Shown: positions 14,598-30,654 of the stretch, piece after piece | Layout of the letters: every line of letters starts with the position of its first letter | Numbering within the stretch: the stretch's first letter is position 1 | DNA from: an uncultured Gammaproteobacteria bacterium | GTDB lineage: Bacteria > Patescibacteriota > Patescibacteriia > UBA9934 > GWF2-40-263 | Assembly (NCBI GenBank): GCA_964538435.1 | Contig: CAZIDX010000006.1 | Location: 11,923-75,922 of the forward strand | Length of the DNA: 64,000 bases | Direction: 5' to 3' | Program-made: the position numbers and the translations under genes | The notes under the pieces: generated by a model | Databases searched by the model: none | The model's input: the letters and a program-made list of their open reading frames with translations, nothing else | What the model was told of the DNA's origin: nothing

Positions 14598-14650
14598 CAC
14601 GACACAAATTCTCACCGGGGTGAGTTTTTGTGTCGTGCTGTTTTGTTTTA
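14598..14650. terminator. Strong bidirectional terminator between convergent genes
   Basis: 11-bp perfect outer stem (cacgacacaaa/tttgtgtcgtg) with a nested 6-bp stem, T-rich on both sides. Confidence 0.6.
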
Positions 14651-17077: not shown

Positions 17078-17467
17078 AGCGATCTTATTATAACGCAAAA
17101 ACCGCGAATGTGGGGGATCCGCGGCTTTTGCTATAAAGTTGTGACGGCCCACTCGGAGCCTGTCCGAACCTAAACAGTGGGACTGCTTGGGCTTAGACAT
17201 CTTGTCTGTATGCAGTTTGGGGTCACATCCACTCAATTGTCGGAATTTGCTCCAGACCTATTGAGTAGCTGCGTGCTACAACGAAACAAGCATGGCGTCT
17301 CGTTCGGGCCAAATCTACCATCCAGTGCGGGAATGGAAGGAAAGGCCCGTCAATGTCACTTGGCAAACTCTCAAAGAACGTTTCAGCTCGATGGTAACCT
17401 TAACCAGGCCGGAGGAGATAACCAATATCTCCGGTTGTTCTATCGCGCTGATTGATTCGATACACAC

Positions 17468-20400
17468 TTAAGATGGCTCCTCGGCTGTTGCGCCGCCGTC
17501 ATCTGTTTGTGGGGGATCGACCTCGTCTAGCTCCGGGCTCTCCGGAGATGCTGGTTCTTCCTGTGCTACAGGCTCAGGCTCGAGAGCTGGCTCTTCTTCT
17601 TGAGCAACAACCTCTTCAACCGGCTCTTCTTGTGGTGGTGCTTCTTCCTCTACAGGTTCTTGGGTTGGTTCTGGATCCTCAACAACTTCTTCAATTGGCT
17701 CTTCAACAATTGGTTCTGGCTCTGGATCCACTGGAGTTGGCTCTGGCTGATCTGCGATCACCTCAGGCTCAACAGGTTCAAATCCCTTTCGGTAGGCTGT
17801 CACCATCCAGTCAAACTCGATGTCGCTTGCACCACCAAAGCTCTTCACAATGAAGTGGTTCTGGTCTTTTTCTGATACGTAGAGTGAGGTTGGTCCGTTT
17901 GGTGTGGCAACAACTCTGATCGGTGCAATTGCAGAGATAACATCGTTATACTCTGGAGCCACGTTTTCAAATCTGACATGTGCCTCTCCGTTTACAAGCG
18001 TTGCTGTTCCCGAGAGCGTAATGATTGCCTCAGGTGAGGTTACTGCGATGGTTTCTACTTTTTCGTTTAAGTGAGAAGTGATCACATTCTTCACAACTGA
18101 CTCTGTCTTGATCGTTCCGTTTGAATCAATTGACCAGAACTCTCCCATTCCTGAAATGTGTCCGATTGAGAAGATTGAATGTGTATTCATTGAAATGTTT
18201 CCACTCATATTGAGTGCAACATAATTTGTGGTTTGTCCTTCTGCGAACCCTGATGCTGCATTGTTTGTTCCTGGAGCTGGGAGTGAACCTGAACCTCCCC
18301 AGTACCCAACGTTTACGTAGGTGAGAACCAGGTTATCATTTTCAGATCCAGTGTATGGCTCAAGCGCGTAACCAACTACAGGCCCGGCTTCCTTTGCTTT
18401 CATTGCCACACCTGGAATTGATGAACTTGTAAGTGGGTCTCCCACGTTCACTGCGCCGTTTTCTAGGTTTACGCGTGTTGGCACGCGTCCGGCAAGTGCA
18501 ATTGGGTAGTTGCCTTCAATATTCTCACCAGCTAGGAACCCTGGCCTTGTTGAGACAATACCTGCTAGGGCATTTGCTGTTGCTGCATCTGATCGCTGCA
18601 CGTACTCTCCGTTTCCTGAGAACATTACGATGTCTCCTGGCTCAAGCTCTTGGCTCGACGGGAACATCTCAGCAAAGTCGTATGAGCCTGTAGACCAACC
18701 CTTTGCGTTTGTGCGCATGAAGTCTCCTGCAGGACCAGATGAACCATCATAATAAATGTACTTGTCTGTCTGAGGTGTTCCACGGTCTGATGGGTAGATG
18801 TTTCCACCCGCAACTATATGATTTGCAATTCGCATGGTTCCCTCATTTGTGATGTAGGCGACCTCTGTGTCTGTTGCATCAGTAATTGAGAGGCGATAGT
18901 TATCCTCGTCTTCAACTACGTTTTGCATCATCATCTCAACAACCTCTGCTTCGGATCCATTCCATGCAGATCCGCGGAATGCGAGACCGTAGGAATCAAA
19001 TGATTCTTCGCTTGCTGTTGCCTCACCTACTGGCGAGATGACCACATTATCTGTCACAAGCGTTGATTCGCCATCTGTTCCAATTATGTCTCCCATGTAC
19101 CAACTATTGTTCACCTGGACCATGACGGTTCCAGAGACATCATCAAAATCCGTGAGCGCCATACCAATCACACGCCCAACCTTGGTTGCCTTCATGGCAT
19201 GCCCAGGAGTAGACGAGGTGGTGAGGTAGTCACCAACTTCGATAGAGCCGTTTTCATTTGTCACCTTCACTGGGACACGCCCAACCAAGGCAACCGGCAT
19301 TGGGTTGTCTTCTTCTTCAATGTTGTACCCAGCTGATGTGAAGTCTCCGTAGTTGTCTGAGACGATTCCTACGATTGGTCCAGTGTATGGCTCAGATGAT
19401 TTGACCATCTTTGCAATCACATCACCGTCCATTGTTGTTACGCTTTCTGTTCCTGGCACGACGATGTCACCATACTCAACACCTTCTTCTACTGGGTATT
19501 GCTCAGCATAGTCAGCTGTTGGAGCTCCAGTACAGTCAAGAAGTGTTGTGTCGTTGGTAACACCAGTTGTGTGACAAACCGCTTCAGTTGCACCAGATGT
19601 TGGGAGGTCAACCACCACATTTCCCTCTACATCAAACGTTCCTGTCATGGTTAGTGAAGCTCCACTTGTTCGCTGCAGTGTGATTGTGTTGTCAGCGTAG
19701 AGTCTGATTTCGTCGTCGGCAGAGAGACCAACGTCTCCTCCATTAAGACCCAGCGTTGGAGCCGTTCCTCCAGATACAGCTGAAATATTTCCTTCTGCAC
19801 CAGCTCCTGTTTTTGATCCCGCTGTCAAAGAAACGCTTCCTCCGGCATTTGCTCCAGTCCCTTGAGCGTCACCTGCAACCACAGACACACCTCCACCAGC
19901 ACCACCATTTCCAGCAGCAAGCCCGTCTCGACCAGTAATATCAACTCCTCCGCCCTGTCGAGCTACTGCTCCGTTTCCTGTTGGTAATCCTCCAAGAAGA
20001 GAAACTTTACCGCCGTCTCCTCCAGTTGTTTGAGAAGCACCTGCTCCTCCAGTAATTGTTGCAGTTCCACCACCGTTTCCTGCACCATCACCTGTCCCTG
20101 CTGTGACAACCACATCACGACCGACGGCGGCAGATGCAGCACCTGCCACAATGTTGAGATGGCTCGCTGCAAATGAACCCAATTCATTTACATTGATTCT
20201 TCCGTACGCCCCCTTGTCATCAATAGACATTAATGGGTTTGCCCCTGAGGAAGAATCTGCAAATGTAATTGTTCCTGTATCTTCGATGGTGATGTTTGCG
20301 GTTGTGTCTTTAAATGCAATCTCACTGTCCCAGCCAGACCCAAAGTTCAGACCAAATGAGTTAATTGTTCCGGCCCCGGATTCCGTGAGCCCACCGATAT

Positions 20401-23400
20401 CAATACCATAGGCTGTATCTGTTCCAGTTGTGTTTGAGAATGTCATTCCCGCAGCACCAATGTTTACTGCCCTGAATGCCGTATCTGTGCCTGTTCCTGC
20501 TACACCTGGAACAATGTGAAGGGCATTTACACTGGCATCGCCACCTACATACGTTAGGTCGATTCCATCAACACCTGCTGTTGCGGTTGGGTTTGCATTG
20601 TTGGTCAGGGTAAGCATGTTACCTGCTGTCATTGCAGCAGATGTATTGAGTTGAACTTGTGAATTTGCATCAATATCAAACACAACATGCCCAGCTCCAC
20701 CTGCTTGGAGCACTAGATTCTCACCAGCAGCAGAGGTGATATCAATGTCTGTGTCTGCGGCACTATCAAAACTGAGAGCTGTGTTGGCGTCTACAAACAC
20801 TGTGTGATTGACACCTGTGGTTGAACCAAAATTCACACTTCCGTTATCTGACACAGTGAATGCTGCAGCACCTGAATCCTGAACAACAAAGTCTCCTGTT
20901 GATTGCAGGTTGATAAGTGTATTTCCGGATGAATTGTTAACAATCGAGAACACCTCAGCGCTGTCTGCGGTAATGCTGGTAGAGGCGTCCATGATCATTG
21001 CGTCTTGGAACTGTGCAAAGTCAAGGCAGTCAATACAGGAGATCGATCCACCTGTGATCGTTCCGGCAATGTCAAGGTTTCCGTCGGCTTCAATTGCATC
21101 TGCTACGTAGAGGTCACCCGCTCCGGTTGCGACTCCTGGTGTGTTTGGTGTGGCATCGTTGTCCACGAACATTGGTGAGCCGTAGAAGTAACCTGAGTAG
21201 TTATTTGTTCCACCTGAGGCTGTTCCAGCAACTCCGTATCGGTTTGTTCCGTCGCCAATGTTTTGGAAGAATCCTCCAAAACCGTTTGTGATATTTCCAC
21301 TTCCAACATCGATCGTACCTTCAACACCAAAAGCGTTGGTGATTGTTCCACCTGAGACTGTTGAGTCAACAACACCTCGGACACCTGCGACACTTGGCGC
21401 GGTTTGAGAATTTGACATGTACCTTCCAAGACCATAAACACCTGTAACCTCTGCTGGTCCAGCAGCCGTGTTGTTGCTAAATGGTGTGATGCCAGCCAGA
21501 CCACGCGCTCGGTATGTGCTTGCTGATTGATCAACTTCGGTATTTAGCTGGAAGTAACCGCCGTAATGATTTGTGTTTGCGCCGATGGATCCACTTGGAC
21601 TAGCACCTGCATCAATCACTGTTGCTCCTGAGGTCCCAGAGATGTCAGTGAGGCTCTTAAAGTACCCAACTTTAAGCCCTCCACCATCCATGTCGTAGTA
21701 GTCTCCAGTGTTAAAGGTGATGGTTCCTGTTTCTCCGTTTGATGCATACATATCGATCGATGCACTTGTTGTAGCTGCATCACCGATTCGAATCTTGTTT
21801 GCTGACTCGTCAACTGAGAATGCAGAGACCAAAGTTGCTGCATTACCCACTGAGAAGTCATCACCTGTGTTTGTTGCAACAATTCCAGAAGATGATTCAA
21901 GTGTGAGGGCTCCACCAGATGCAGACCCAATTGTCAGTGCTCCTACACCTTGAATCACATCGTCGTTGACTGTAAGTGTTCCACTTGAATCAAGAGTGAG
22001 CGCATCTGCGCCATCACCAATCGTTGTTGCTTGATCAAACGTCAAATTACCTCCATCAATATCTAGAAGGAGATCTGCTGTCGTTTGAATTTCTCCGTCC
22101 ATGTAATTGGTGGAGAACGCGCCGGCTGTGAATCCGATATCTGAGAAGACTTCACCGTCTGCTTCGATGCGGAAGACATTGTTTCCTGCTCCACCATAGT
22201 CTGTTTGGATGTTTACAATGTCTGCTGTCTCAGTCGTCTCTGTGACGTCAATTGAGAGAGCGAGCCCTGTGTCGTCTGTGAAGTTTCCTCCGAGAAGGTT
22301 GAGGATTGTTCCTGTAGTAGTTGTGGCGCCATCTAGACTGAATACAGATTGTGAGGTTGACTCTGAATCGATGCTTAGCGCTGTCCCGTTTCCATCTTGA
22401 TCGATTGTCACTCCGATTCCTGTACCTGTGTTTAGGTGACGCACCAAATCCTCAGTGTACAAACCATAGTCCCAGGCTGTGCCTGTTTGGTATAGGGCGT
22501 ATTCCTTTCCATCTGCCTGATTTGCACCTCCGAGGTTGTTGATCAGAATTCCGTAAATGTCATCATCTGTTCCGGCATCAGTTGCGTTGTTTGTTACGTT
22601 GATATCGAGCGCTCTTCGAACATCAGCAGCTCCATCGTCGGCATACTGAGAGAAGACAGAGGTGATTGTCGTTGCTGATGCATTTCCAGCGTTCGTTGTT
22701 GCTGAGGTGTAATCAATATCAACCATTGGCACTGTTCCTGTGGCAGTGTTGTTTTGAATCCACATGATTTCACTTCCTCCAAGCTGGTGGAAGGTCTCAT
22801 CATTAAACGTAACACCTCCTGCTAAGTAGATGTCTTGGTAGGCTGCGCTGCTGTCTGTTGTGATAAACAACTGATCCACTGAGGAACCACCGAGCGTGGC
22901 GCTTGTTCCTGTTGAACCAAGAAGGAGCTGGCCTCCTGCAACGGGATCGATGTCAATGTTTCCCGTTGAAGTGATGTTACCTCCGTTGAGCGCTAAGTCT
23001 CCTGCTGTTGTAATGTTTCCGGTTGCTGGAGCAACTGAGTAATTTGCTCCCCCAACTGTAAGCGCAGCACCTGTGATATCGAGTCCGTTTGTTGCATCAA
23101 GATTTCCATCAAATGTTGCTTGTCCGGTTGAACCGAAGTTTAGCTGTCCTGTTCCTGAGGTTGAGAGGTTGTATGCCCCGAGATTGATGCTTGTAGAAGC
23201 ATCGAGAGCGAGCGTGTCTGAGAAACTGTCGAAGTCGAGGCAGTCTGTGCAGGAGATTCCTGACAGATTTGCTGTGCCGTTGACTGTTAGGTCTCCTGTG
23301 ATGGTCAAATCACCTGTTGTCCCAGCGTCTGCAAGTGTCATCAAGGTGTTTGTTCCATCATTGAACGCAATAGACCCTCCGCCAGCTACTTGAATATTTG

Positions 23401-25006
23401 TTGTTGTGTCATCAAGTAAAAGATTTGCATCCCATCCACTTCCAATCCTAAGTCCTGTTTCTGTCACTGTCCCATCAGGGCTTGTTAGGTTTGCGATATT
23501 TATTCCTCGAAGTGTGTCTGGGTCACCTGTGGCTGCTGATGTCACGTTCACATCTAGCGCTGACACTGTGTCTGTGTTTGAGTTGTTGCCAAGCGTGAAG
23601 GCAAGGTTCTGACCATTTGCTTCTGAGGAAGTTGTTGTTAGTGAAAACGTATTCGTTGATGCGCTTGAATTTGTAATGGAGAGATTCTCAGATCCAGCGA
23701 GACTTAGATCTACATCAGTGTTGAAGGTTGCGGCACCGTCAAACTGAGCGGTACTAGAAGCAACCAATGCCCCATTTATGGACACTTGACCTGTCCCGGT
23801 TGAGAGCGTTCCTGATCCGGTTTGTGAGAAACTTCCATCCATTGTGATCCCACCAATTCCAGTGAGGTCACCAGTTGCGGAAATATCCCAATCTGAGGAA
23901 TTAACAGAAAGAACATTGGAACCACCACCAATGACTGTTGTTTGCCCGAACGTCAAATCTCCGCCTGCAATCGTAAGAAGCAGATCTGTCGTTCCGGTTG
24001 AGGTGATGGTTCCGTTTCCATAGGTTGTTCCACTACCGACCGTGAGACCACCGTCGGTGTAGATCACACCTTCTACACCAGCATCACCAGCAACGAAGAG
24101 ATCGTCGCCCCCGAGAGTGAAGCTTGAGTGTGCAAGTGTTTCTGTAGATGAGGTCGATGCTCCGACTACAACATCGGTAGCAAAGAAACTATCTGCAAGC
24201 ACTTCGAGTTCGTCAGCGATACTGAGGTCTCCGACGCTTTCTGTTGCGTATGTTAGAGCCCCGTTTGCACCAATACGTACAGCATAATCATCTTCAAAGA
24301 CACGAGTGCTCACTTCCCATTCACTGCTTGTGATATCGGAAGTGAATGCAACTGTCCCTGATCCATCTTGGAATGTGATTGTGTTTGCACCTGATGGATC
24401 TGTAATTGCGAACGTTGTTGTGTTCCCGTCGTTAGATGCACCTTCAAACACAATTGGAGATGCGCCAGTAAGTTCTGCGCCGGTGAGGTTGTAGTCTCCA
24501 GTACCTGTGTCGCCAGTTGCTGAGAGGAATCCTGTGGAGTCGATTCCGTCTAGTCTTTGGGCGTTAAGGGCATATGGAGCAGAAGTGAGTTGTTTTCGTG
24601 GGGAAAGCGTTTCACTTCCGATTACAACCTCAAGGAACATGCTGGTGTTATCACCAAACACAGAATCCGCGATAGCTGCATATGAATCACCGGTGTCACC
24701 CAGGTTTTCTGTGTAGAGACCTGAGGTGAGCGTGATGCTCTTTGCAACAACTGAAGCTGGGGTATTTGTGTGACAATCGGCCGAATCATTTGACCAGACA
24801 CAGGTTCCCCCTGTCAGCGCGTCGTAGAGCATGAACTTCATGCTTAATGATGTATCCGATACAGGAACACCGTTTGAGTTGAGAACACGCCCTTGATATG
24901 TGAGGATGTTCGGAGGTGCGGCCGCATGAGCAACCCCAACAATCATCAACATCAATGATGCGATGAGTGTGGCTGCTATGCGCTTGTATCCCCGAACGTG
25001 ATACAT
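17468..25006 (-). CDS. Giant secreted surface protein (2512 aa): signal peptide, long G/T/S/N/D-rich beta-repeat region, two SC(T/I)DCLDF Cys motifs, acidic Pro/Glu-rich C-terminal tail
   Basis: N-terminal signal peptide ...VGVAHA/AAPP. Low-complexity repeats typical of beta-helix or adhesin-like proteins. Last gene of a four-gene operon. Confidence 0.8.
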   Translation of the reverse strand: MYHVRGYKRIAATLIASLMLMIVGVAHAAAPPNILTYQGRVLNSNGVPVSDTSLSMKFMLYDALTGGTCVWSNDSADCHTNTPASVVAKSITLTSGLYTENLGDTGDSYAAIADSVFGDNTSMFLEVVIGSETLSPRKQLTSAPYALNAQRLDGIDSTGFLSATGDTGTGDYNLTGAELTGASPIVFEGASNDGNTTTFAITDPSGANTITFQDGSGTVAFTSDITSSEWEVSTRVFEDDYAVRIGANGALTYATESVGDLSIADELEVLADSFFATDVVVGASTSSTETLAHSSFTLGGDDLFVAGDAGVEGVIYTDGGLTVGSGTTYGNGTITSTGTTDLLLTIAGGDLTFGQTTVIGGGSNVLSVNSSDWDISATGDLTGIGGITMDGSFSQTGSGTLSTGTGQVSINGALVASSTAQFDGAATFNTDVDLSLAGSENLSITNSSASTNTFSLTTTSSEANGQNLAFTLGNNSNTDTVSALDVNVTSAATGDPDTLRGINIANLTSPDGTVTETGLRIGSGWDANLLLDDTTTNIQVAGGGSIAFNDGTNTLMTLADAGTTGDLTITGDLTVNGTANLSGISCTDCLDFDSFSDTLALDASTSINLGAYNLSTSGTGQLNFGSTGQATFDGNLDATNGLDITGAALTVGGANYSVAPATGNITTAGDLALNGGNITSTGNIDIDPVAGGQLLLGSTGTSATLGGSSVDQLFITTDSSAAYQDIYLAGGVTFNDETFHQLGGSEIMWIQNNTATGTVPMVDIDYTSATTNAGNASATTITSVFSQYADDGAADVRRALDINVTNNATDAGTDDDIYGILINNLGGANQADGKEYALYQTGTAWDYGLYTEDLVRHLNTGTGIGVTIDQDGNGTALSIDSESTSQSVFSLDGATTTTGTILNLLGGNFTDDTGLALSIDVTETTETADIVNIQTDYGGAGNNVFRIEADGEVFSDIGFTAGAFSTNYMDGEIQTTADLLLDIDGGNLTFDQATTIGDGADALTLDSSGTLTVNDDVIQGVGALTIGSASGGALTLESSSGIVATNTGDDFSVGNAATLVSAFSVDESANKIRIGDAATTSASIDMYASNGETGTITFNTGDYYDMDGGGLKVGYFKSLTDISGTSGATVIDAGASPSGSIGANTNHYGGYFQLNTEVDQSASTYRARGLAGITPFSNNTAAGPAEVTGVYGLGRYMSNSQTAPSVAGVRGVVDSTVSGGTITNAFGVEGTIDVGSGNITNGFGGFFQNIGDGTNRYGVAGTASGGTNNYSGYFYGSPMFVDNDATPNTPGVATGAGDLYVADAIEADGNLDIAGTITGGSISCIDCLDFAQFQDAMIMDASTSITADSAEVFSIVNNSSGNTLINLQSTGDFVVQDSGAAAFTVSDNGSVNFGSTTGVNHTVFVDANTALSFDSAADTDIDITSAAGENLVLQAGGAGHVVFDIDANSQVQLNTSAAMTAGNMLTLTNNANPTATAGVDGIDLTYVGGDASVNALHIVPGVAGTGTDTAFRAVNIGAAGMTFSNTTGTDTAYGIDIGGLTESGAGTINSFGLNFGSGWDSEIAFKDTTANITIEDTGTITFADSSSGANPLMSIDDKGAYGRINVNELGSFAASHLNIVAGAASAAVGRDVVVTAGTGDGAGNGGGTATITGGAGASQTTGGDGGKVSLLGGLPTGNGAVARQGGGVDITGRDGLAAGNGGAGGGVSVVAGDAQGTGANAGGSVSLTAGSKTGAGAEGNISAVSGGTAPTLGLNGGDVGLSADDEIRLYADNTITLQRTSGASLTMTGTFDVEGNVVVDLPTSGATEAVCHTTGVTNDTTLLDCTGAPTADYAEQYPVEEGVEYGDIVVPGTESVTTMDGDVIAKMVKSSEPYTGPIVGIVSDNYGDFTSAGYNIEEEDNPMPVALVGRVPVKVTNENGSIEVGDYLTTSSTPGHAMKATKVGRVIGMALTDFDDVSGTVMVQVNNSWYMGDIIGTDGESTLVTDNVVISPVGEATASEESFDSYGLAFRGSAWNGSEAEVVEMMMQNVVEDEDNYRLSITDATDTEVAYITNEGTMRIANHIVAGGNIYPSDRGTPQTDKYIYYDGSSGPAGDFMRTNAKGWSTGSYDFAEMFPSSQELEPGDIVMFSGNGEYVQRSDAATANALAGIVSTRPGFLAGENIEGNYPIALAGRVPTRVNLENGAVNVGDPLTSSSIPGVAMKAKEAGPVVGYALEPYTGSENDNLVLTYVNVGYWGGSGSLPAPGTNNAASGFAEGQTTNYVALNMSGNISMNTHSIFSIGHISGMGEFWSIDSNGTIKTESVVKNVITSHLNEKVETIAVTSPEAIITLSGTATLVNGEAHVRFENVAPEYNDVISAIAPIRVVATPNGPTSLYVSEKDQNHFIVKSFGGASDIEFDWMVTAYRKGFEPVEPEVIADQPEPTPVDPEPEPIVEEPIEEVVEDPEPTQEPVEEEAPPQEEPVEEVVAQEEEPALEPEPVAQEEPASPESPELDEVDPPQTDDGGATAEEPS

Positions 25007-25009
25007 ATC

Positions 25010-28000
25010 TTATTGGTTTGCATTTGGGTCAAGCCCGATATCCTCAGAGAAGTTTTGTGCTTCTGTGGTCTGAGTGAAATCGATTGGCCTGATTTCTTTT
25101 GGATTGAACCCGTTTCGCTCGAACACAGCGAAGTACTGATTTGGTCCGAGCATGAAGGCATATCTTCCTTTACTATCCGTCACCTGTGTTTCAAGAAGCT
25201 TGTTGTAGGTAGGCTCAAAGATTCGCGCGACCACTCGTGAGAGCGGGCGTCCGGTCTGAGAGTCATATACAATGCCCCAACTTATTGGTTTGCGTGGTTT
25301 GGCCAATCGTCGCGCGAGCAGGTAAACGACAACCTGCACAGCGATCATTGCAATCGAGAGCGGTGTTGGACGAATTATGGCAAACACTACAGCTGCAATT
25401 ACACCCAGCATTGCAACTACATGTTGGAACACACGAAGGCGTGCGCGCCACATGATTGATGATGGAGCGTGGAACTTCTCGGTTTGTGACGGATCCATTG
25501 GAATGTTTGCGGTGATAACCGCATCATCCTGCGTGACCTCGATCGTGTGACCGTGGTAGAGATCAAGCATGTTTCCATCTGTTGGCTGACCTTGGAGGTA
25601 CGCAGATGGGAAGTCGTACCCCGCCTTTGAGACAGCGATGTAGTACCTACCTGGTTTTGCCAGGAAAAAATACCGCCCCGCTTTGTCTGTTACGCGACTC
25701 TTTACGAGTCGGCCTGGAAGGTTCTGAGCCTCAGCCTCTGGCGTAAGCTCGAACAATCGCACGACCGCAAGATCAATTGGAGTCTTGCTGATCGCGTTAT
25801 AGACAACTCCGAATCCCTTTCGCTTACGGCGCCAGAAAAAGAGAATTGGCGCAGTGAAAAGATATTGAAGGAATGGGAGAAAGTCGAAGGCGATTGCCAT
25901 CACCACTGTGCTAGCACCTGCTGTTACAACAAGTGCTGGGACAGAGACTTCTGCCGCCTCTTCGACACCTGGAAGTTCACGAATCGTTTCCAGGGTTTCT
26001 TCTACGACTTCACCGACAGGATTATCAAGGATGGCCTCAATAATCGTTTCCGGCTCTTTGTCTGTAGAAACTTGCTCTTGAGCGTCAGGCTCAGATTCTT
26101 GTGTGTCATCGATGAGGACATCCTCTTCCTCTTCTTCATCTTGAGGAGTCATCTCAATGGACGGATTCACGATCCAGTTGGTGATCGTTAGAGACCCGAC
26201 CTTGGTCTCATTGAACCCATCGATCTGCGCCTGTAGTTCGTACGTCCCGTTTTGCACATACCATGCGAATGTACCTGCGGGAGGTGTCTGGATTGGGTTG
26301 AGTTGACTGTATGGGGATCCATCCCATACAACAAACTCACCGTCGATCTGCTCGGAGAGCGTCACAGTCACACCTGGAAGAGGCGCTTCTTCACCATCGA
26401 TGTCCTGGTAAACAATCCCGTCGGATTTTACACGCAGGAGTGAAGAAACATTTTCTTCAGAGTCGTCTGCGTACGTCACCTCGATGGATACGAGGTACGT
26501 AGCAACGCTATCAGGAGTTGTGACTTGTGCTGAATAAAGAACGCTTGTCTCATCTAGAGACATTAGGTACTGGTCTGAGCCGATTTTGAGCGTGACGTTT
26601 TCAATGTCATCACTCAGCTCTGATACGGGAATCTCGATTCTCAGTGTGCTTGTGGGAAGCACATCAACAACGCCTGAGTCGTTGATCTCGAGTTCGATTT
26701 CGCCGCCTGCTACTAGGAAGCCCATGTCTTGTACGTCGAGGTCTCCAGATTCCGCACCCATGGAATCAGGATCACTGACAGAACAATCTGCTGGACAGGA
26801 GTATTCAGATTCCGACTCGGCACAAATGCCGTCTCCGCAGACAACCGCCTCGTCTGCATCGTCGTCGTCCTCTTCGCCGCCCCCACCATCATCTGGTGGA
26901 GTGGCATCGTCTCCTTCTTCCCCGCCACCACCGTCATCACCCTCTTCACCTCCTGCATCTTGATCCTCTCCGTCATCTGGAGGATCTTCCTCATCATCGG
27001 GTGGCTCTTCAACTGGAGCACTTGGTGTGCCTGTACCAAGAGCGCCAGATGCAAACTGCCCGATCTCGTCGTAAACAAATACGCCGAGGTAGTATGTGAC
27101 ATCGTTAGTGAGTCCGTTGAGCGTGGCTGTTTCAGCCAGAGAATCGAATGCTTCTACACAATCTTCATCGTCTGGTCCTGAAGGATGCTCGTCCTCGCAA
27201 TAGAGAATAAGAACGCCAGCCAGGTCATCTTCGTCTGGGTTTGTCCATGTAAGAACCAACTCTTGATCTCCCTCTTCAACCGCGAGGTCTGAAACATTTG
27301 TTGGTGCTTCGTCTGCAATCGTTGAAAAGGTGTAGTCATCTGAGTATGTCTCGTTTCCTAGCTCGTCGATTGATCGAATCTGATAGTGATATTCGGTTTC
27401 TGCTGCAAGACCAGACAATAGAATAGAGTGAGCTATTACGTACTCACTGTCTGACTCAGAAGACCCATAGCTCTCTGTCTCTCCATATGAGACTAAGCTG
27501 TCAGCGTCTTCGTCTGTATCCCAAGTGATGGTCGCTGTGTAGGCTGTGATATCGATAACCTCGATGCCAGAAATGACAGGCCCTGTTCCATCTAGGGTTG
27601 TAAACGAATAGGTTGGGGATGAAGACTCATTTGCGTTTCCATCTGCGGAGCGTGCTCGGATGTAATATGTGGTGCTTCCGGTTAGCCCTGTGAGCGTCAT
27701 GCTGTGAGACGTGACTAAGGATGCGTCATATTCAGTTCCAAGCTCGAAGTAGACTGTGAGCCCGTAATCAACCGCTGTTGTTGCACCTTCATTTGTTGTC
27801 CAAGTAACAGTCGCTGTTGTGGCTGTGATACTTGAGACAACCACATCTGTTATGTATGGAGGGGATGTGTCGGTTTCAGACCCTGGATCTGGAGTTAGGT
27901 CTGGGACCGTTGCTGTAACAGCAACTGAATCGTCGCTTCCGATTGGAAGTGCGATCGATCCAGTGTCACCAAACGTGCCAGCAATGGACAGAAAGTATGT

Positions 28001-28474
28001 TCCTGCGCTGGTCGGATTGGTGATTTGATTTGAACCTGTTCCTGAAGCCGTAGCATTTGTTCCAATCTCGACCTCAACTACGCTTGTTGCCGCAATTGCA
28101 CCTCCGTCCCCTGCACAAACCTCTAGCGTTACAACGTCTGATGCAATTGAGATGGCAACCTGCTCAGACCCGGAGCAATCAGCTGCGGTTGTGAGCTCAG
28201 TATCATCGTCTTCTACATCAATATCGTCCTCTACGAGAGACGACGTATCGAAATCAGAGGCAAATGTGAGCGTAACTGTTTCTCCTTCTGCCACTCCTGA
28301 TGGAGTTGTAAAGACCACGTGGTGATTTGCAGATTCCCCAGCCTGAAGCGTGCTTGGGTAATCATTTGCAGTTGTCACCGTTGCTGCATGCACAATTGAA
28401 GCAGCCACAACAGCCGTTGTGATAAGCACAACGATCGATAGGCTTCTCCAAATGGATGACATTGAACACACCAC
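25010..28474 (-). CDS. Large surface protein (1154 aa) with signal peptide, FN3-like repeats, acidic linker, Cys knot, and C-terminal TM segments alternating with Cna-B/carboxypeptidase-regulatory-like domains
   Basis: FN3-like blocks (TVTWTT...YYIRARS; TITWDTDEDADSLVSYGE...YHYQIRS). Hydrophobic helices followed by RRKRK. Blocks resembling GRYFF...YY..VS.AGYDF. Confidence 0.75.
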   Translation of the reverse strand: MVCSMSSIWRSLSIVVLITTAVVAASIVHAATVTTANDYPSTLQAGESANHHVVFTTPSGVAEGETVTLTFASDFDTSSLVEDDIDVEDDDTELTTAADCSGSEQVAISIASDVVTLEVCAGDGGAIAATSVVEVEIGTNATASGTGSNQITNPTSAGTYFLSIAGTFGDTGSIALPIGSDDSVAVTATVPDLTPDPGSETDTSPPYITDVVVSSITATTATVTWTTNEGATTAVDYGLTVYFELGTEYDASLVTSHSMTLTGLTGSTTYYIRARSADGNANESSSPTYSFTTLDGTGPVISGIEVIDITAYTATITWDTDEDADSLVSYGETESYGSSESDSEYVIAHSILLSGLAAETEYHYQIRSIDELGNETYSDDYTFSTIADEAPTNVSDLAVEEGDQELVLTWTNPDEDDLAGVLILYCEDEHPSGPDDEDCVEAFDSLAETATLNGLTNDVTYYLGVFVYDEIGQFASGALGTGTPSAPVEEPPDDEEDPPDDGEDQDAGGEEGDDGGGGEEGDDATPPDDGGGGEEDDDDADEAVVCGDGICAESESEYSCPADCSVSDPDSMGAESGDLDVQDMGFLVAGGEIELEINDSGVVDVLPTSTLRIEIPVSELSDDIENVTLKIGSDQYLMSLDETSVLYSAQVTTPDSVATYLVSIEVTYADDSEENVSSLLRVKSDGIVYQDIDGEEAPLPGVTVTLSEQIDGEFVVWDGSPYSQLNPIQTPPAGTFAWYVQNGTYELQAQIDGFNETKVGSLTITNWIVNPSIEMTPQDEEEEEDVLIDDTQESEPDAQEQVSTDKEPETIIEAILDNPVGEVVEETLETIRELPGVEEAAEVSVPALVVTAGASTVVMAIAFDFLPFLQYLFTAPILFFWRRKRKGFGVVYNAISKTPIDLAVVRLFELTPEAEAQNLPGRLVKSRVTDKAGRYFFLAKPGRYYIAVSKAGYDFPSAYLQGQPTDGNMLDLYHGHTIEVTQDDAVITANIPMDPSQTEKFHAPSSIMWRARLRVFQHVVAMLGVIAAVVFAIIRPTPLSIAMIAVQVVVYLLARRLAKPRKPISWGIVYDSQTGRPLSRVVARIFEPTYNKLLETQVTDSKGRYAFMLGPNQYFAVFERNGFNPKEIRPIDFTQTTEAQNFSEDIGLDPNANQ

Positions 28475-28491
28475 ACATTAATAAGGAATAG

Positions 28492-29421
28492 TTATTTTCG
28501 TTTTCTTCGTCCAAGAGCAAAGACGCCGATTAAGACCACGAGAGCACCAAGCAGAGTAGATAGGAGTTGCCACGGTACAAGCGTGAACGCGCTTAACTCT
28601 ATAGAAAGCCGTTGGTTTCCTGCGTATTCGAGCTCAAGCTGTGCTGTCACAGGCCCCAGAGAGAACAATCGCATCTGCTCTGAAATGGTTTGGAGCCATC
28701 CCGATACCCCTGACTCAATGCTGACTGAATATGTTCGGGTGGAACCCGGAAGCACACGCCCCTCATTCTCGTTGATGTTGGCAGAACTGAGCACTCTTCC
28801 GAATACATCCTTTAGTAAGAGTGTTCCTTGTGGCATCACGTGAACATTCCCCTGGTTTTGAACACGAAACTCAAACTCTCCTTCTGGCAAAGATTTCATG
28901 GACTTACCACCCACCTCAACAAGGTCGAGGATTGCGGCTTGAGCATTCATCTCTACACCCCCGACACTGAGCAGAACAAGGACAGCTGTTTTCGCTTCAA
29001 TAATCGCCCCGTTTGATGCAACGACATCGTATGGGGCTGAAGACACAGTAATTGCAGCATAATGACCGCTGTTTTGCGCACTGTCTGGGATAAAGATCTC
29101 AAAAGGAACTTCTGCTTGTGAATGAGCTGGGATCACCACCTGAGACTCATTGAACCGAATCCAGTTCGCAAGCACCTGAGCTTCGTCTTCTTCCTCAAAA
29201 AATGTTGGTGATTGTCCATCTTCATCTGCCTGAAACCCCATGGTGTCCACAAAATACGTCTGGTCGGTGTCATTTGGGTTAATAATGGTGATTGATGAGC
29301 TGACCAGATCACTTCTATCTCCTTCAAGTTCAAGCACGGATGGAAGAACGGAAGCAGAAAGCACCGCAGAAGGAACCAGGAACGCTACCAGCGCAACAAT
29401 TGTGAGAAGAAGGCGTTTCAT
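28492..29421 (-). CDS. Secreted, C-terminally membrane-anchored protein (DUF916-like cell-surface protein)
   Basis: Signal peptide MKRLLLTIVALVAFLVPSAVLSA. A C-terminal TM helix followed by GRRKRK. Start refined to ATG at 29421, preceded by AGGAAA. Confidence 0.65.
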   Translation of the reverse strand: MKRLLLTIVALVAFLVPSAVLSASVLPSVLELEGDRSDLVSSSITIINPNDTDQTYFVDTMGFQADEDGQSPTFFEEEDEAQVLANWIRFNESQVVIPAHSQAEVPFEIFIPDSAQNSGHYAAITVSSAPYDVVASNGAIIEAKTAVLVLLSVGGVEMNAQAAILDLVEVGGKSMKSLPEGEFEFRVQNQGNVHVMPQGTLLLKDVFGRVLSSANINENEGRVLPGSTRTYSVSIESGVSGWLQTISEQMRLFSLGPVTAQLELEYAGNQRLSIELSAFTLVPWQLLSTLLGALVVLIGVFALGRRKRK

Positions 29422-29422
29422 A

Positions 29423-30328
29423 TCAGAAGTTTCCTGAGGCAATGACTGAAATCGTGTGACCGTATGATCCAGCAGTTGAGGTTGTTGCTGCTGCAATCTT
29501 TAGAGCTAGGAAGTCTCTGGACTCAAAGGCAAACGTTGATTCTGTATCGACATCCTGGAATGACGTGGTAATTGCTGAGTCTTCTGTGTCAAAACTTGAA
29601 TCTGTAAGTGTTGTGTCTGAGGAGCGAGCACCGTATTCTTCTGATCCAGCTGTAACTGTTCCGTCGCTGACATCTGAAAACGATGCGGCCCCGTCCCTGA
29701 GATTTCCATCCTCAACCACCTGAACAACATATCCGTTGCTATTATCAACGGTTACCTCCCATCCAATCACTGCCAAATCAACAGTTGTTGCATCCAGGTT
29801 GCCAAATCCGATTGATGCACCATTGAGTTCATAGACATAGTCACCTGATGCATCTGGAACAGGCATTGTTCCGGCGTGCTTCCACTCGTCAACAGTTACT
29901 TCTCCTGTTCCAACGACTGTTATTTGACCAATGGCTACGACATTGTCTGTTCCATAGTCCTCTACAACCGAGATGTAATCATCGACGACCAATCCAGATG
30001 TTGAGGAAACCGTCACAGTGTTTCCGCTGATTGCCCCTGCTGTGCGTCCGGTTCCTGAGCTTGTTGCGAAAAGATCGAATTTTATTATCTGTGCAAAATC
30101 ACCTGATCGATAACCTTGATCAAGCTGATACGAGGAGCTAGTAGATGTTCCTGCCACACCGGTCTCTACGGTGTCATGCAATTGATAGCTGGTGGAACTT
30201 GAAGTATCGGACCCACCGGTACTAAACGTATCCCACCGAATTTGGTAATTGGTAGAGCTCATTTGCGCGCTGGCAAAACTCGCCCATACAAAAACCCCCA
30301 CAATTGCAAAGGCTAGAGGTTTCCCCAT
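29423..30328 (-). CDS. Secreted Thr/Ser/Asp-rich protein (301 aa), first gene of the surface operon
   Basis: Signal peptide ending ASA/QM. The promoter (TTGACT-17-TATACT) and RBS AAAGGA lie just upstream. Confidence 0.65.
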   Translation of the reverse strand: MGKPLAFAIVGVFVWASFASAQMSSTNYQIRWDTFSTGGSDTSSSTSYQLHDTVETGVAGTSTSSSYQLDQGYRSGDFAQIIKFDLFATSSGTGRTAGAISGNTVTVSSTSGLVVDDYISVVEDYGTDNVVAIGQITVVGTGEVTVDEWKHAGTMPVPDASGDYVYELNGASIGFGNLDATTVDLAVIGWEVTVDNSNGYVVQVVEDGNLRDGAASFSDVSDGTVTAGSEEYGARSSDTTLTDSSFDTEDSAITTSFQDVDTESTFAFESRDFLALKIAAATTSTAGSYGHTISVIASGNF

Positions 30329-30351
30329 ATCTTTCTATCCTTTACAAACAT

Positions 30352-30380
30352 AGTATATCATGAATACGAAAAGTAGTCAA
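30352..30380 (-). promoter_or_regulatory. Sigma70-like promoter of the surface-protein operon (TTGACT-17-TATACT)
   Basis: Near-consensus hexamers with 17-bp spacing, about 25 nt upstream of the start codon. Confidence 0.55.
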
Positions 30381-30434: not shown

Positions 30435-30467
30435 GCCCATTTCTGGCCTTGAGGGCCAAAAATGGGC
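30435..30467. promoter_or_regulatory. Extended nested hairpin GCCCATTT-TGGCC-TTGA-GGCCA-AAATGGGC upstream of the operon promoter (insulating terminator or regulatory RNA element)
   Basis: Near-perfect dyad with T-runs on both strands. Confidence 0.4.
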
Positions 30468-30595
30468 ACTTTTTTAGATTTATCCACATATTTAGCATGT
30501 TTGTCTACACTATACTGGACAAATAGATCAAAAATCGGTGTTTTGTTTCCTGTGAAACCAATTACAGCTTCTATTCCTGATAGTTTGTGTTAAAC

Positions 30596-30625
30596 AAAAA
30601 GACACGGTTATTTCCGTGTCTTTTT
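30596..30625 (-). terminator. Terminator of the HAD hydrolase gene
   Basis: agacacgg-ttatttc-ccgtgtct followed by TTTTT on the minus strand. Confidence 0.6.
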
Positions 30626-30654
30626 ATCTTCTAAGAAGGGCACTTCCTTCTTTT

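What the first reader, a model, noticed from the sequence alone, without database searches (positions are those of the whole stretch)
17468..30380. 12.9-kb four-gene cell-surface operon encoding a 2512-aa giant repetitive secreted protein and three partner proteins
A single promoter (TTGACT-17-TATACT) drives four genes. The first is a 301-aa secreted T/S/D-rich protein. The second is a 334-aa protein with a signal peptide and a C-terminal TM anchor plus GRRKRK tail (DUF916-like). The third is an 1154-aa protein with FN3-like repeats, an acidic D/E/G linker, a Cys knot and TM segments interleaved with Cna-B or carboxypeptidase-regulatory-like domains. The fourth is a 2512-aa protein dominated by G/T/S/N/D beta-repeats, two SC(T/I)DCLDF motifs and an acidic Pro/Glu C-tail.

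The gene order and anchoring style resemble the surface-complex clusters of monoderm bacteria (the WxL / DUF916 / giant-adhesin type). The individual proteins are highly divergent. The operon takes up 20% of this window. It is likely an attachment or host-interaction apparatus.
Basis: partly seen in the sequence, partly recalled or inferred. Interest (0 to 1): 0.6.

Follow-up and report, generated by a model that had tools for sequence, protein, structure and literature searches.

The report
Shaft-less Pam-type pilus plus giant fibre
This operon, from an ultra-small Candidatus Uhrbacteria (CPR) bacterium, encodes a cut-down relative of the recently described CPR "Pam" pilus together with a giant phage-tailspike-like fibre, and is most likely the organism's cell-attachment apparatus.

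Summary
Four tightly packed genes lie on the minus strand behind one good promoter match. The 2512-aa ORF is intact and has orthologs of similar size.

The organism is a Candidatus Uhrbacteria (Patescibacteria/CPR).

- **g1** is a sub-threshold homolog of the Pam tip pilin PamT and of the Pam pilin C-terminal domain.
- **g2** (309 aa, not 334) is a membrane-anchored two-Ig chaperone. Its best structural matches are WxLIP and the PapD/CsuC/FimC chaperones.
- **g3** carries a Pam-pilin-type N-domain and linker strand on an FN3 stalk with membrane anchors.
- **g4** has a Bdellovibrio-MAT-like N-domain and two phi29-gp12-type (Peptidase_G2) autochaperone modules, so it is probably a trimeric fibre.
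- A fifth conserved gene, a multipass membrane protein with TPR repeats, follows g4.

The gene order is invariant in 49 Uhrbacteria-type genomes, and the cassette recurs widely in CPR metagenomes. One relative fuses g1's N-terminal extension directly to the g3 stalk and lacks both the g1 body and the chaperone. This argues that g1 and g3 form one unit joined by strand complementation.

The locus has no shaft pilins, so I read it as a shaft-less tip-on-stalk variant of the Pam system. The idea that it docks the fibre is inferred, not shown.

Verdict: new variant of a known kind, moderate interest.

The parts
30435..30467 (-). Terminator-like hairpin (14-bp stem) upstream of the operon promoter. 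It marks the 5' boundary of the transcription unit.
   Evidence: sequence
30352..30380 (-). Sigma-70-like promoter TTGACT-17-TATACT with an extended -10 TG
   Evidence: 10/12, best match in the region; an AAGGA ribosome-binding site precedes the ATG
29423..30328 (-). g1, 301 aa: PamT-like tip subunit. Layout: signal peptide (aa 1-21), conserved N-terminal extension, inserted small beta-barrel (aa 79-165), C-terminal Pam-pilin-type Ig-like domain (aa 166-301).
   Evidence: NCBIfam PamT 1.9e-11 and Pam_pilin_C 6e-4, both below the curated cut-offs. AF2 model. Weak Foldseek matches to chaperone-usher pilins. 1057 relatives found in the profile search.
30095..30265 (-). g1 N-terminal extension (aa 22-78), with three [ST][ST]x[NST]YQ[IL] motifs at residues 24, 44 and 63. 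It is the most conserved part of g1 yet is predicted disordered in the monomer.
   Evidence: The same module is fused to the anchor protein in P0365 and P0373.
28492..29421 (-). g2, 309 aa: membrane-anchored two-Ig-domain chaperone (PapD/WxLIP/PamC-D-like), with a signal peptide, a C-terminal TM helix (aa 284-308) and a GRRKRK tail
   Evidence: AF2 pLDDT 89.6. Foldseek: WxLIP 7e-11; CsuC, CfaA, DraB, FimC, PapD and Caf1M 1e-10 to 1e-7. Profile against PDB: EfmWxLIP1 1.6e-5.
25010..28474 (-). g3, 1154 aa: stalk and anchor protein. Layout: signal peptide, pilin-type N-domain plus linker strand, three FN3 domains, acidic linker, Cys-rich knot, Ig and CarboxypepD_reg domains, then TM segments interleaved with two highly conserved CarboxypepD_reg domains.
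27890..28384 (-). g3 N-domain (aa 31-180) and the following strand SDDSVAVTATV (aa 181-195). These are homologous to the N-domain and inter-domain linker of two-domain Pam-type pilins.
   Evidence: BLASTP against P0359: 3e-11, with the alignment ending at the shared DDxVxVxATV strand. The N-domain HMM hits both shaft pilins and anchors in metagenome loci.
17468..25006 (-). g4, 2512 aa: giant secreted fibre. Layout: signal peptide, MAT_N-like N-domain, about 1650 aa of diverged G/T/S/N/D-rich repeats, conserved C-terminal module of about 700 aa, acidic Pro/Glu tail.
24512..24922 (-). g4 N-terminal beta-rich domain (aa 29-165), similar to the Bdellovibrio MAT fibre N-domain
   Evidence: NCBIfam NF053851 1.4e-5, covering 3-159 of 162 positions, below cut-off. 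53-71% identity across the Uhrbacteria loci.
19103..19531 (-). g4 autochaperone-like module 1 (aa 1826-1968), with a DYAE motif at residue 1832
   Evidence: internal repeat 8e-20. Profile A3 against phi29 gp12 3gqh: 1.9e-5. Pfam Peptidase_G2 in 6/16 domain copies. Motif position.
18311..18697 (-). g4 autochaperone-like module 2 (aa 2104-2232), with a DFAE motif at residue 2110
14648..17236 (-). Fifth conserved gene: multipass membrane protein (about 11 hydrophobic segments) with a C-terminal TPR domain. The real start is probably near 17077.
   Evidence: It lies after the fibre gene or before the tip-pilin gene in related cassettes.

Best explanation
The operon encodes a reduced, shaft-less version of the CPR 'Pam' chaperone-assisted donor-strand pilus, coupled to a giant trimeric fibre. 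It probably serves to attach this Candidatus Uhrbacteria cell to another cell.

**Proposed assembly**
1. All products are exported by Sec.
2. g2 is a PapD/WxLIP-like chaperone tethered to the membrane by its C-terminal helix. It holds the incomplete Ig-like C-domain of g1.
3. The strand that follows the pilin-type N-domain of g3 then replaces the chaperone strand (donor-strand exchange).
4. This mounts g1 on top of g3. g3 is a long FN3/Ig stalk rooted in the membrane.

No two-domain shaft pilin is encoded here. The product would therefore be one tip subunit on one stalk, not a polymer.

**The fibre.** g4 folds as a trimer with the help of its phi29-gp12-type C-terminal autochaperone modules, which may then be cleaved at the DxAE motifs. 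It is the distal, variable adhesin. Its conserved MAT_N-like N-domain docks on the g1-g3 unit, most likely on the conserved three-motif N-terminal extension of g1. The downstream TPR membrane protein is an accessory of unknown role.

**Shown:** the homologies, folds, gene order and fusions.
**Inferred:** the strand exchange between g1 and g3, the docking of g4, trimerisation and cleavage of g4, and the attachment function.
For: **Host.** Homologs of g1, g2 and g4 are named Candidatus Uhrbacteria or Patescibacteria.

**g1 and Pam pilins**
- g1 hits NCBIfam PamT at 1.9e-11 and Pam_pilin_C at 6e-4.
- Intermediate relatives found with the g1 profile (1e-20 to 1e-41) hit the same two models at 1e-7 to 1e-17.

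**g2**
- The model has two Ig domains and a C-terminal TM helix. It matches WxLIP and many chaperone-usher chaperones.
- This is the architecture described for PamC and PamD (paper 10.64898/2026.03.03.709456).
- The g2 profile finds the chaperones of multi-pilin Pam-type loci at 1e-68 to 1e-77.

**g3**
- Its N-domain plus strand aligns with the N-domain plus linker of a two-domain pilin at 3e-11.
- g3 has no acceptor C-domain, as expected of a terminator or anchor such as PamR.

**Fusion evidence.** P0365 (933 aa) is a g3 ortholog (39% identity over 834 aa). It carries the g1 N-terminal extension in place of the N-domain. Its locus L055 has the fibre and the TPR gene but no g1 body and no chaperone.

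**Conservation**
- The order g1-g2-g3-g4 holds in all 49 Uhrbacteria-type genome loci as far as the contigs reach.
- The cassette tip pilin > chaperone > anchor > MAT_N fibre recurs in CPR metagenome contigs. Of 25 loci with at least 6 kb downstream, 23 have the chaperone, 19 the anchor and 18 the fibre.

**g4**
- N-domain against Bdello_MAT_N: 1.4e-5.
- The repeated C-terminal domain hits the phi29 gp12 autochaperone at 1.9e-5. Its invariant D and E align with the first residues of the cleaved chaperone.
- Pfam Peptidase_G2 reaches 1.1e-9 in orthologs.
- The gp12 C-domain is an autochaperone that is cleaved off after folding (PMC3357383).
- MAT fibres have the same layout, and their N-domain is proposed to bind an unidentified surface element (PMC10769870).

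**g1 extension.** It is the most conserved part of g1 yet has pLDDT near 30 in the monomer.
Against: - Every match to a named family (PamT, Pam_pilin_C, Bdello_MAT_N, and Peptidase_G2 for g4 itself) is below that family's curated cut-off.
- Foldseek matches of g1 to chaperone-usher pilins are weak (E 0.03-0.2).
- No complex was modelled, so strand exchange between g1 and g3 and the docking of g4 remain untested.
- The proposed g3 donor strand is only moderately conserved (0.53).
- Some relatives have the tip-chaperone-anchor trio with no adjacent fibre (L088, L094, L104). The fibre is therefore not obligatory, or is encoded elsewhere.
- The statistical link between the extension and the fibre rests on only 3 control loci (p=0.037).
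- The best-conserved parts of g3 are the C-terminal CarboxypepD_reg domains between TM segments. A passive anchor role does not explain this.
- No expression or localisation data exist.
Confidence: 0.6

Rival explanations
1. g1 polymerises into a true pilus. Its conserved N-terminal extension would be a classical donor strand that fills the C-domain groove of the next g1, as in chaperone-usher pili. g3 would cap and anchor the base, and g4 would be an independent adhesin.
For: - The extension is conserved, strand-like and unstructured in the monomer.
- g2 is a chaperone of the PapD type.
- Weak fold matches of g1 to PapA, FimA and Csu pilins.
Against: - In L055 the extension sits on the anchor protein with no acceptor C-domain in the locus.
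- In cassettes that have shaft pilins, those are two-domain proteins that use an internal linker, and the extension-bearing protein is a single gene at the head of the operon.
- The Pam paper places PamT at the tip.
Confidence: 0.2
2. It is a WxL-type surface complex. A DUF916/DUF3324 protein (g2) would hold partner proteins on the cell wall and link them to host surfaces.
For: - WxLIP is the best structural match of g2 (7e-11) and the only significant sequence match in the PDB (1.6e-5).
- WxLIP also has two Ig domains and a C-terminal TM helix, and inserts a hairpin into its partner (PMC10599100).
Against: - No WxL domain in g1, g3 or g4, and no Pfam DUF916/DUF3324 hit for g2.
- g1 hits CPR Pam pilin models instead.
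- All homologs are from CPR bacteria.
Confidence: 0.08
3. The region is a remnant of a prophage or a phage-tail-like element, and g4 is a tailspike.
For: - g4's C-terminal modules resemble the phi29 gp12 and Dpo31 tailspike chaperone domains.
- g3 and g1 give weak hits to tail proteins.
Against: - The cassette sits in the same chromosomal place, next to polA, holA and rmuC, in dozens of species.
- No capsid, portal, terminase or integrase gene is nearby.
- All products have signal peptides.
- PHROGs finds nothing for g4.
Confidence: 0.03
4. The genes are merely neighbouring envelope proteins, for example S-layer or wall-associated, with no physical complex between them.
For: - No direct interaction data exist.
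- The fibre is absent next to some trios.
Against: - Strict gene order across 49 genomes.
- Gene overlaps or gaps of 1-3 nt.
- Fusion proteins joining the g1 extension to g3, and the chaperone to the anchor (L076 and L123).
Confidence: 0.07

Closest known systems
Pam pilus system of CPR bacteria (Candidatus Mycosynbacter amalyticus; Troman et al., bioRxiv 10.64898/2026.03.03.709456)
   Same: - CPR-restricted.
- Sec-exported subunits.
- A tip protein of the PamT type and a Pam-type pilin C-domain.
- A PapD-like chaperone with a C-terminal membrane helix.
- A membrane-anchored FnIII-containing terminator that donates an N-terminal element.
- A 'tail fibre-like' gene in the neighbourhood.
   Different: - No PamA/PamB/PamE-type two-domain shaft pilins.
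- One chaperone instead of two.
- g1 has an extra inserted beta-barrel.
- The anchor (g3) is a 1154-aa multi-TM protein with a pilin N-domain, three FN3 and three CarboxypepD_reg domains, not a small RbmA-like protein.
- The host is Uhrbacteria (Parcubacteria group), which the paper does not mention.
- All HMM scores are below the curated cut-offs.
- ATP synthase genes were not looked for in this window.
WxL / WxLIP (DUF916-DUF3324) surface clusters of Firmicutes (PMC10599100; PDB 9i1y, 9i25)
   Same: g2 shares the layout of a signal peptide, two Ig-like domains and a C-terminal TM helix. WxLIP is its best structural match, and its only significant sequence match, among solved structures.
   Different: - No WxL-domain partner.
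- No Pfam DUF916/DUF3324 hit.
- A different phylum.
- The partner (g1) is a Pam-type pilin.
Classical chaperone-usher pili (Pap, Fim, Csu, CFA/I)
   Same: - The chaperone fold.
- A probable incomplete Ig-like subunit domain completed by a strand from the next subunit.
- The logic of a tip subunit plus a terminator.
   Different: - No outer-membrane usher.
- The chaperone is membrane-tethered.
- The base is a membrane-embedded stalk protein.
- No shaft polymer is encoded.
Bdellovibrio MAT (mosaic adhesive trimer) fibres (PMC10769870)
   Same: - A signal peptide followed by a conserved beta-rich N-domain of about 130 aa.
- A long repetitive body of variable length.
- A C-terminal intramolecular chaperone.
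- An organism that lives on other bacteria.
   Different: - The chaperone is of the Peptidase_G2 (phi29 gp12) type and duplicated, not S74.
- The protein is two to three times longer.
- It is genetically tied to a pilus-like cassette.
- The N-domain match is below the family cut-off.
Phage phi29 pre-neck appendage gp12 (Peptidase_G2 autochaperone; PDB 3gqh, 3suc)
   Same: The repeated g4 domain begins with an invariant D-x-A-E that aligns with the N-terminus of the cleaved gp12 chaperone.
   Different: - Two copies about 278 aa apart.
- Cellular, not viral.
- Cleavage is untested.

Membership tests
CPR Pam pilus system | Tip protein PamT (NCBIfam NF058579, equivalog, cut-off 240 bits) | tested here: not met
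   g1 scores 43.8 bits (E=1.9e-11) over residues 5-119 only. It is homologous, but not an equivalog, and it has an extra inserted domain.
CPR Pam pilus system | Pilin C-terminal truncated Ig-like acceptor domain (NF058581, cut-off 55 bits) | tested here: inconclusive
   g1 residues 169-297 score 19.8 bits, E=6e-4. Intermediates link the two families. The fold matches chaperone-usher pilins only weakly.
CPR Pam pilus system | PapD-like chaperone retained in the membrane by a C-terminal helix (PamC/PamD) | tested here: met
   AF2 model with two Ig domains and a helix at 284-308. Foldseek matches to chaperone-usher chaperones and WxLIP. No NCBIfam chaperone model matched, so sequence membership could not be tested.
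CPR Pam pilus system | Major two-domain pilins (N-domain, linker strand, C-domain) that form the filament (PamA/PamB) | tested here: not met
   No second protein in the 64-kb window matches the g1 profile. g1 and g2 are adjacent in all 49 genome loci. The rest of the genome was not seen.
CPR Pam pilus system | Membrane-anchored FnIII-containing terminator with an N-terminal donor element (PamR) | tested here: inconclusive
   g3 has three FN3 domains, TM segments and a pilin N-domain plus linker. Its architecture differs from that of PamR, and no PamR sequence was available to compare.
CPR Pam pilus system | Assembly into filaments by donor-strand exchange | not testable with these tools
   No complex prediction or experiment was possible.
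WxL / WxLIP cluster | WxLIP protein with the DUF916 (PF06030) and DUF3324 (PF11797) domains | tested here: inconclusive
   No Pfam hit at E<=0.1. However, the profile hits EfmWxLIP1 at 1.6e-5, and WxLIP is the top Foldseek hit at 7e-11.
WxL / WxLIP cluster | One or more WxL-domain proteins in the cluster | tested here: not met
   No WxL Pfam hit for g1, g3 or g4. The WxL chains of 9i25 are not among the 50 g1 fold matches listed.
Classical chaperone-usher pilus | Outer-membrane usher | tested here: not met
   No usher family hit in the operon or its flanks. No usher-like gene appeared in the related cassettes scanned with the module HMMs, though that scan held no usher model.
Bdellovibrio MAT fibre | Conserved N-terminal domain after the signal peptide (NF053851, cut-off 60 bits) | tested here: inconclusive
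   24.9 bits, E=1.4e-5, covering 3-159 of 162 model positions. A related fibre in L057 scores 34.4 bits.
Bdellovibrio MAT fibre | Homotrimeric beta-helical fibre | not tested
   No structure was predicted for g4. Trimerisation is inferred only from the autochaperone homology.
Peptidase_G2 intramolecular chaperone (phi29 gp12) | Domain match to PF11962 or to the gp12 chaperone, with the D-x-A-E motif at its start | tested here: met
   The domain profile hits 3gqh at 1.9e-5, starting at chain residue 1. D7 and E10 are invariant. PF11962 is found in 6/16 copies, best 1.1e-9. g4's own copies are below cut-off (16.1 bits).
Peptidase_G2 intramolecular chaperone (phi29 gp12) | Autocatalytic release of the C-terminal domain after trimer folding | not testable with these tools
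   This needs protein expression and mass spectrometry.

The most novel reading that the evidence does not exclude
The conserved, intrinsically unstructured N-terminal extension of PamT-like tip subunits has three SxNYx[IL] strand motifs. It may be the docking site for the N-domain of MAT-type trimeric fibres, one motif per protomer. CPR cells would then use a chaperone-assembled pilus tip, or here a shaft-less stalk, as a holder for exchangeable phage-tailspike-like adhesins. This would also suggest what kind of surface element MAT-type N-domains bind, a question left open for the Bdellovibrio MAT fibres.
Probability: 0.3. Interest if true: 0.75.

Novelty: new variant of a known kind. Interest (0 to 1): 0.55.

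Why it matters
CPR bacteria are thought to live attached to other microbes, yet their attachment machinery is mostly unannotated.

This locus extends the newly described Pam pilus family to Uhrbacteria (Parcubacteria group). There it takes a minimal form: one tip subunit, one chaperone and one membrane stalk.

The locus is also tied, by strict gene order and by natural gene fusions, to a giant variable fibre and a TPR membrane protein. Together these give a concrete, testable parts list for cell-to-cell attachment in a large uncultured lineage.

They also suggest how pilus-like and phage-fibre-like modules are combined. The fusion variants show which proteins should bind each other, which makes structural tests straightforward.

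Tried and rejected
- **Exact-sequence look-ups.** Look-ups of g1 and of P0001 found no contig on record. The source contig was therefore not retrieved, and the organism was inferred from homologs.
- **Direct family searches on g4.** Pfam, PHROGs and PDB sequence searches of full-length g4 gave nothing. Only a profile of the repeated domain worked.
- **TPR membrane protein.** Pfam, NCBIfam and PDB found no family for its membrane part. My guess that it is an O-glycosyltransferase or ligase-like enzyme has no support.
- **Microgenomates locus L054.** It was reached through the chaperone motif and has a chaperone-like gene next to an adhesin-like gene, but no Pam-type pilins. It did not help.
- **Cluster names.** The names of distant g1 relatives were uninformative.
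- **Small ORFs and RNAs.** None were found in the g4-TPR gap or around the operon, apart from a tRNA.
- **Rejected readings.** Assembly artefact, prophage origin and a WxL cluster in the strict sense.

Full report
**1. Observation**

The region holds four ORFs, all on the minus strand:
- g1: 29423-30328, 301 aa
- g2: 28492-29496 as listed, 334 aa from a TTG
- g3: 25010-28474, 1154 aa
- g4: 17468-25006, 2512 aa

g2 most likely starts at Met26 (29421), giving 309 aa. Only then is its hydrophobic segment N-terminal, and the identical database protein is 309 aa (P0121). The g1 stop and g2 start are 1 nt apart, and the g3 stop and g4 start are 3 nt apart.

It lies right after a 14-bp-stem terminator-like hairpin at 30467-30435. 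Promoter-like sites are not enriched in the region overall, so this is a plausible assignment and not a proven one.

All four proteins begin with a hydrophobic segment ending in an AxA-like motif. g2 ends in a TM helix plus GRRKRK. g3 has TM segments near residues 845-882 and 1016-1057. That call used a hydropathy scan, because SignalP and TMHMM were not available.

Pfam confirms three FN3 and three CarboxypepD_reg stretches in g3 and finds nothing in g1 or g4.

The giant ORF is not a repeat-assembly artefact. It has no DNA-level repeats. Orthologs of 2606 and 2814 aa sit at the same place in other genomes.

**2. Organism and conservation**

Homologs of g1 (359 hits), g2 (131) and g4 (127) come almost entirely from Candidatus Uhrbacteria and other Patescibacteria. 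NCBI taxonomy places Uhrbacteria in the Parcubacteria group.

A scan of one genome per species with the g2 alignment returned 50 loci. In 49 of them g1, g2, g3 and g4 follow one another in that order wherever the contig reaches. They usually lie downstream of polA, holA and rmuC, as in this window.

A fifth gene follows g4 on the same strand in all 12 loci that extend far enough. In the window it is the 862-aa ORF at 14648-17236. It has about 11 hydrophobic segments and a C-terminal TPR domain. No terminator is predicted between g4 and this gene. Its membrane part matches no known family.

**3. g1**

NCBIfam gives two sub-threshold but specific hits:
- CPR_pilus_PamT: E=1.9e-11, residues 5-119
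- CPR_Pam_pilin_C: E=6e-4, residues 169-297

These families come from a 2026 preprint on Candidatus Mycosynbacter amalyticus. It describes cryo-EM structures of two pilins (PamA and PamB) that assemble by donor-strand exchange. It also describes a tip protein PamT, membrane-anchored PapD-like chaperones PamC and PamD, and an FnIII-containing membrane anchor PamR. It notes a 'tail fibre-like' gene as a constant neighbour.

The AF2 model of g1 has a confident body (residues 79-300, two beta domains) and an unstructured N-terminal stretch (residues 16-78, pLDDT about 30). That stretch is nevertheless the best-conserved part of the protein. It holds three [ST][ST]x[NST]YQ[IL] motifs at residues 24, 44 and 63.

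Foldseek against the PDB gives only weak matches. Chaperone-usher pilins recur among them: the PapG pilin domain, Csu, PapA and FimA, at E 0.03-0.2.

A profile search of 1.84 billion representatives found 1057 relatives. They fall into three groups:
- Orthologs of about 300 aa.
- Many proteins of 215-240 aa that have the N-terminal extension and the C-domain but lack the middle barrel.
- Two-domain pilins of 320-406 aa that share only the C-domain.

Sampled members hit the same two Pam models at 1e-7 to 1e-17. g1 therefore belongs to the Pam pilin superfamily as a PamT-like protein with an inserted domain. It is not a PamT equivalog.

**4. g2**

The AF2 model is confident (pLDDT 89.6). It shows a signal helix, two Ig-like domains and a C-terminal TM helix.

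The best Foldseek matches are:
- E. faecium WxLIP (9i25, 9i1y) at about 7e-11.
- The chaperones CsuC, CfaA, DraB, FimC, EcpB, CupB2, PapD and Caf1M at 1e-10 to 1e-7.

The g2 profile also hits WxLIP1 by sequence at 1.6e-5. WxLIP is the DUF916-DUF3324 protein of Firmicute WxL clusters, and it too is predicted to insert a hairpin into its partner (PMC10599100).

The cluster is still not a WxL cluster, because no WxL domain is present.

**5. g3**

The N-terminal domain (residues 14-190) aligns with the N-domain of a two-domain Pam-type pilin (P0359) at 3e-11. The alignment ends at a shared DDxVxVxATV strand. In the pilin, that strand lies between the N-domain and the C-domain, the position of the donated linker in PamA and PamB.

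After this strand g3 has no acceptor C-domain. Instead it continues into FN3 domains, an acidic linker, a Cys-rich knot, Ig-like domains and membrane segments. A subunit that can donate a strand but cannot accept one is what a terminator or anchor should look like.

Across 31 orthologs the N-domain is well conserved (0.72-0.81). The proposed strand is conserved only moderately (0.53). The most conserved parts are the juxtamembrane region and the C-terminal CarboxypepD_reg domains (up to 0.91). The anchor reading does not explain that last point.

**6. Natural fusions**

P0365 (933 aa) and P0373 (715 aa, partial, Liptonbacteria) are g3 orthologs. P0365 shares 39% identity with g3 over 834 aa. 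In both, the g1-type N-terminal extension replaces the g3 N-domain.

The P0365 locus (L055) contains the fused protein, a g4 ortholog and the TPR membrane protein. It has no g1 body and no chaperone.

The simplest reading has three parts:
- g1 and g3 form one physical unit.
- The g1 C-domain, the g3 N-domain and strand, and the chaperone exist only to make the non-covalent joint between them.
- The N-terminal extension is the functional distal element.

In two metagenome loci (L076 and L123) the chaperone and the anchor lie in one ORF.

**7. g4**

The protein has old internal repeats and a duplicated domain near the C-terminus (residues 1832-1954 and 2110-2218, 41% identity). 114 of 120 listed homologs carry this domain, and most have two copies about 278 aa apart. 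Total lengths range from about 1400 to 4300 aa. The N- and C-terminal modules are therefore fixed and the middle varies.

A profile of the duplicated domain gives these matches:
- The phi29 gp12 autochaperone at 1.9e-5, aligned from residue 1 of the cleaved fragment, with D and E of a D-x-A-E motif invariant.
- The Dpo31 tailspike chaperone at 1e-3.
- Pfam Peptidase_G2 in 6 of 16 copies, best 1.1e-9.

The gp12 C-domain is an intramolecular chaperone for trimer folding and is cut off afterwards (PMC3357383).

The N-domain after the signal peptide matches Bdello_MAT_N over nearly its full length (E=1.4e-5, below cut-off). Bdellovibrio MAT fibres have the same plan. Their N-domain is thought to bind an unidentified element on the predator surface (PMC10769870).

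g4 is thus best read as a trimeric, tailspike-like adhesin. This matches the 'tail fibre-like' neighbour noted in the Pam paper.

**8. Wider cassette**

A metagenome scan with short PamT-like proteins returned 80 loci. I scanned them with module HMMs. They show one recurrent cassette:

[TPR membrane protein] > tip pilin (extension + C-domain) > zero or one two-domain shaft pilin > chaperone > anchor (often with the pilin N-domain) > MAT_N fibre (often with the autochaperone) > [TPR membrane protein]

Among the 25 loci with at least 6 kb downstream of the tip gene:

| Module present | Loci (of 25) |
|---|---|
| Chaperone | 23 |
| Anchor | 19 |
| Fibre | 18 |
| TPR protein | 10 |
| Shaft pilin | 4 |

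Three loci end after the anchor, with a housekeeping gene next. The fibre is therefore frequent but not obligatory.

Loci without an extension-bearing pilin had no MAT_N fibre (0 of 3; Fisher p=0.037). That control is too small to carry weight.

Other lineages attach the giant protein differently. In L056, L074 and L129 a protein of 1700-3000 aa itself ends in a Pam pilin C-domain.

**9. Mechanism, with status of each step**

*Shown*
- The homologies, the predicted folds, the gene order and the fusions.

*Inferred, fairly well supported*
- g2 chaperones the g1 C-domain.
- The g3 N-domain strand then completes that domain, mounting g1 on a membrane-rooted stalk.
- No polymer forms, because no shaft pilin is encoded in the operon or the window.

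*Inferred, weaker*
- g4 trimerises and is processed at D1832 or D2110.
- g4 docks through its N-domain on the three-motif extension of g1.
- The whole assembly mediates attachment to another cell.

The main rival is that g1 polymerises through its extension. The L055 fusion and the operon layouts speak against this, but it is not excluded. The WxL-cluster, prophage and 'unrelated neighbours' readings are unlikely, for the reasons given under rival explanations.

**10. Novelty and verdict**

The Pam system is published (preprint, 2026), so the kind is known. This locus differs in lineage, in lacking shaft pilins and a second chaperone, in the nature of its anchor protein, and in its fixed coupling to a MAT-like fibre with a G2-type autochaperone and to a TPR membrane protein. 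All named-family scores are below the curated cut-offs.

I class it as a new variant of a known kind, of moderate interest. The fusions and the possible fibre-docking role of the tip extension are the points most worth following up.

Noticed in passing
window 14648-17236 (-): An 862-aa ORF with about 11 hydrophobic segments and a C-terminal TPR domain. It is conserved next to the cassette, after the fibre gene or before the tip-pilin gene, in many CPR lineages. Its membrane part matches no Pfam, NCBIfam or PDB family.
   Followed up: partly
g3 residues 885-1000 and 1062-1140 (window 25055-25822): The two CarboxypepD_reg-like domains between and after the TM segments are the most conserved parts of g3 (up to 0.91 majority fraction). 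Each follows a basic stretch, so by the positive-inside rule they would be cytoplasmic. That is an odd place for such domains and is not explained by a passive anchor role.
   Followed up: partly
L056 834-9821; L074 1332-9254; L129 5252-10399: Giant proteins (1716-2996 aa) in other CPR lineages end in a Pam-type pilin C-domain. These are candidate tip adhesins built directly into a pilus. The L056 protein also has an N-terminal HTH_17-like stretch.
   Followed up: partly
L076 10638-14633; L123 10768-13464: In both loci a single ORF carries both the chaperone module and the anchor module, which suggests chaperone-anchor fusions. I did not check for frameshifts or sequencing errors.
   Followed up: no
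window 30470-30650 (-): About 140 nt with no ORF lie between two terminator-like hairpins. One hairpin follows the HAD gene, the other lies just upstream of the operon promoter. Rfam at gathering threshold found nothing there.
   Followed up: partly
loci L008, L009, L015-L017, L020, L028, L029, L032, L034, L048, L051-L053: These MAG records are titled 'uncultured Gammaproteobacteria bacterium' yet carry the complete Uhrbacteria-type cassette and its synteny. The titles look like placeholder or wrong taxonomy.
   Followed up: no
window 11284-12753 (+) and 13278-14444 (+): Two ORFs of 489 and 388 aa downstream of the cassette have no Pfam or NCBIfam match. Neither is found in the related loci.
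   Followed up: partly
g4 residues 69/78, 586/589, 1324/1327, 1811/1825: All eight cysteines of the 2512-aa protein occur as four close pairs. Two of the pairs sit inside the repeated SCxDCLDF motif. This suggests local disulfides or metal sites at module boundaries.
   Followed up: no
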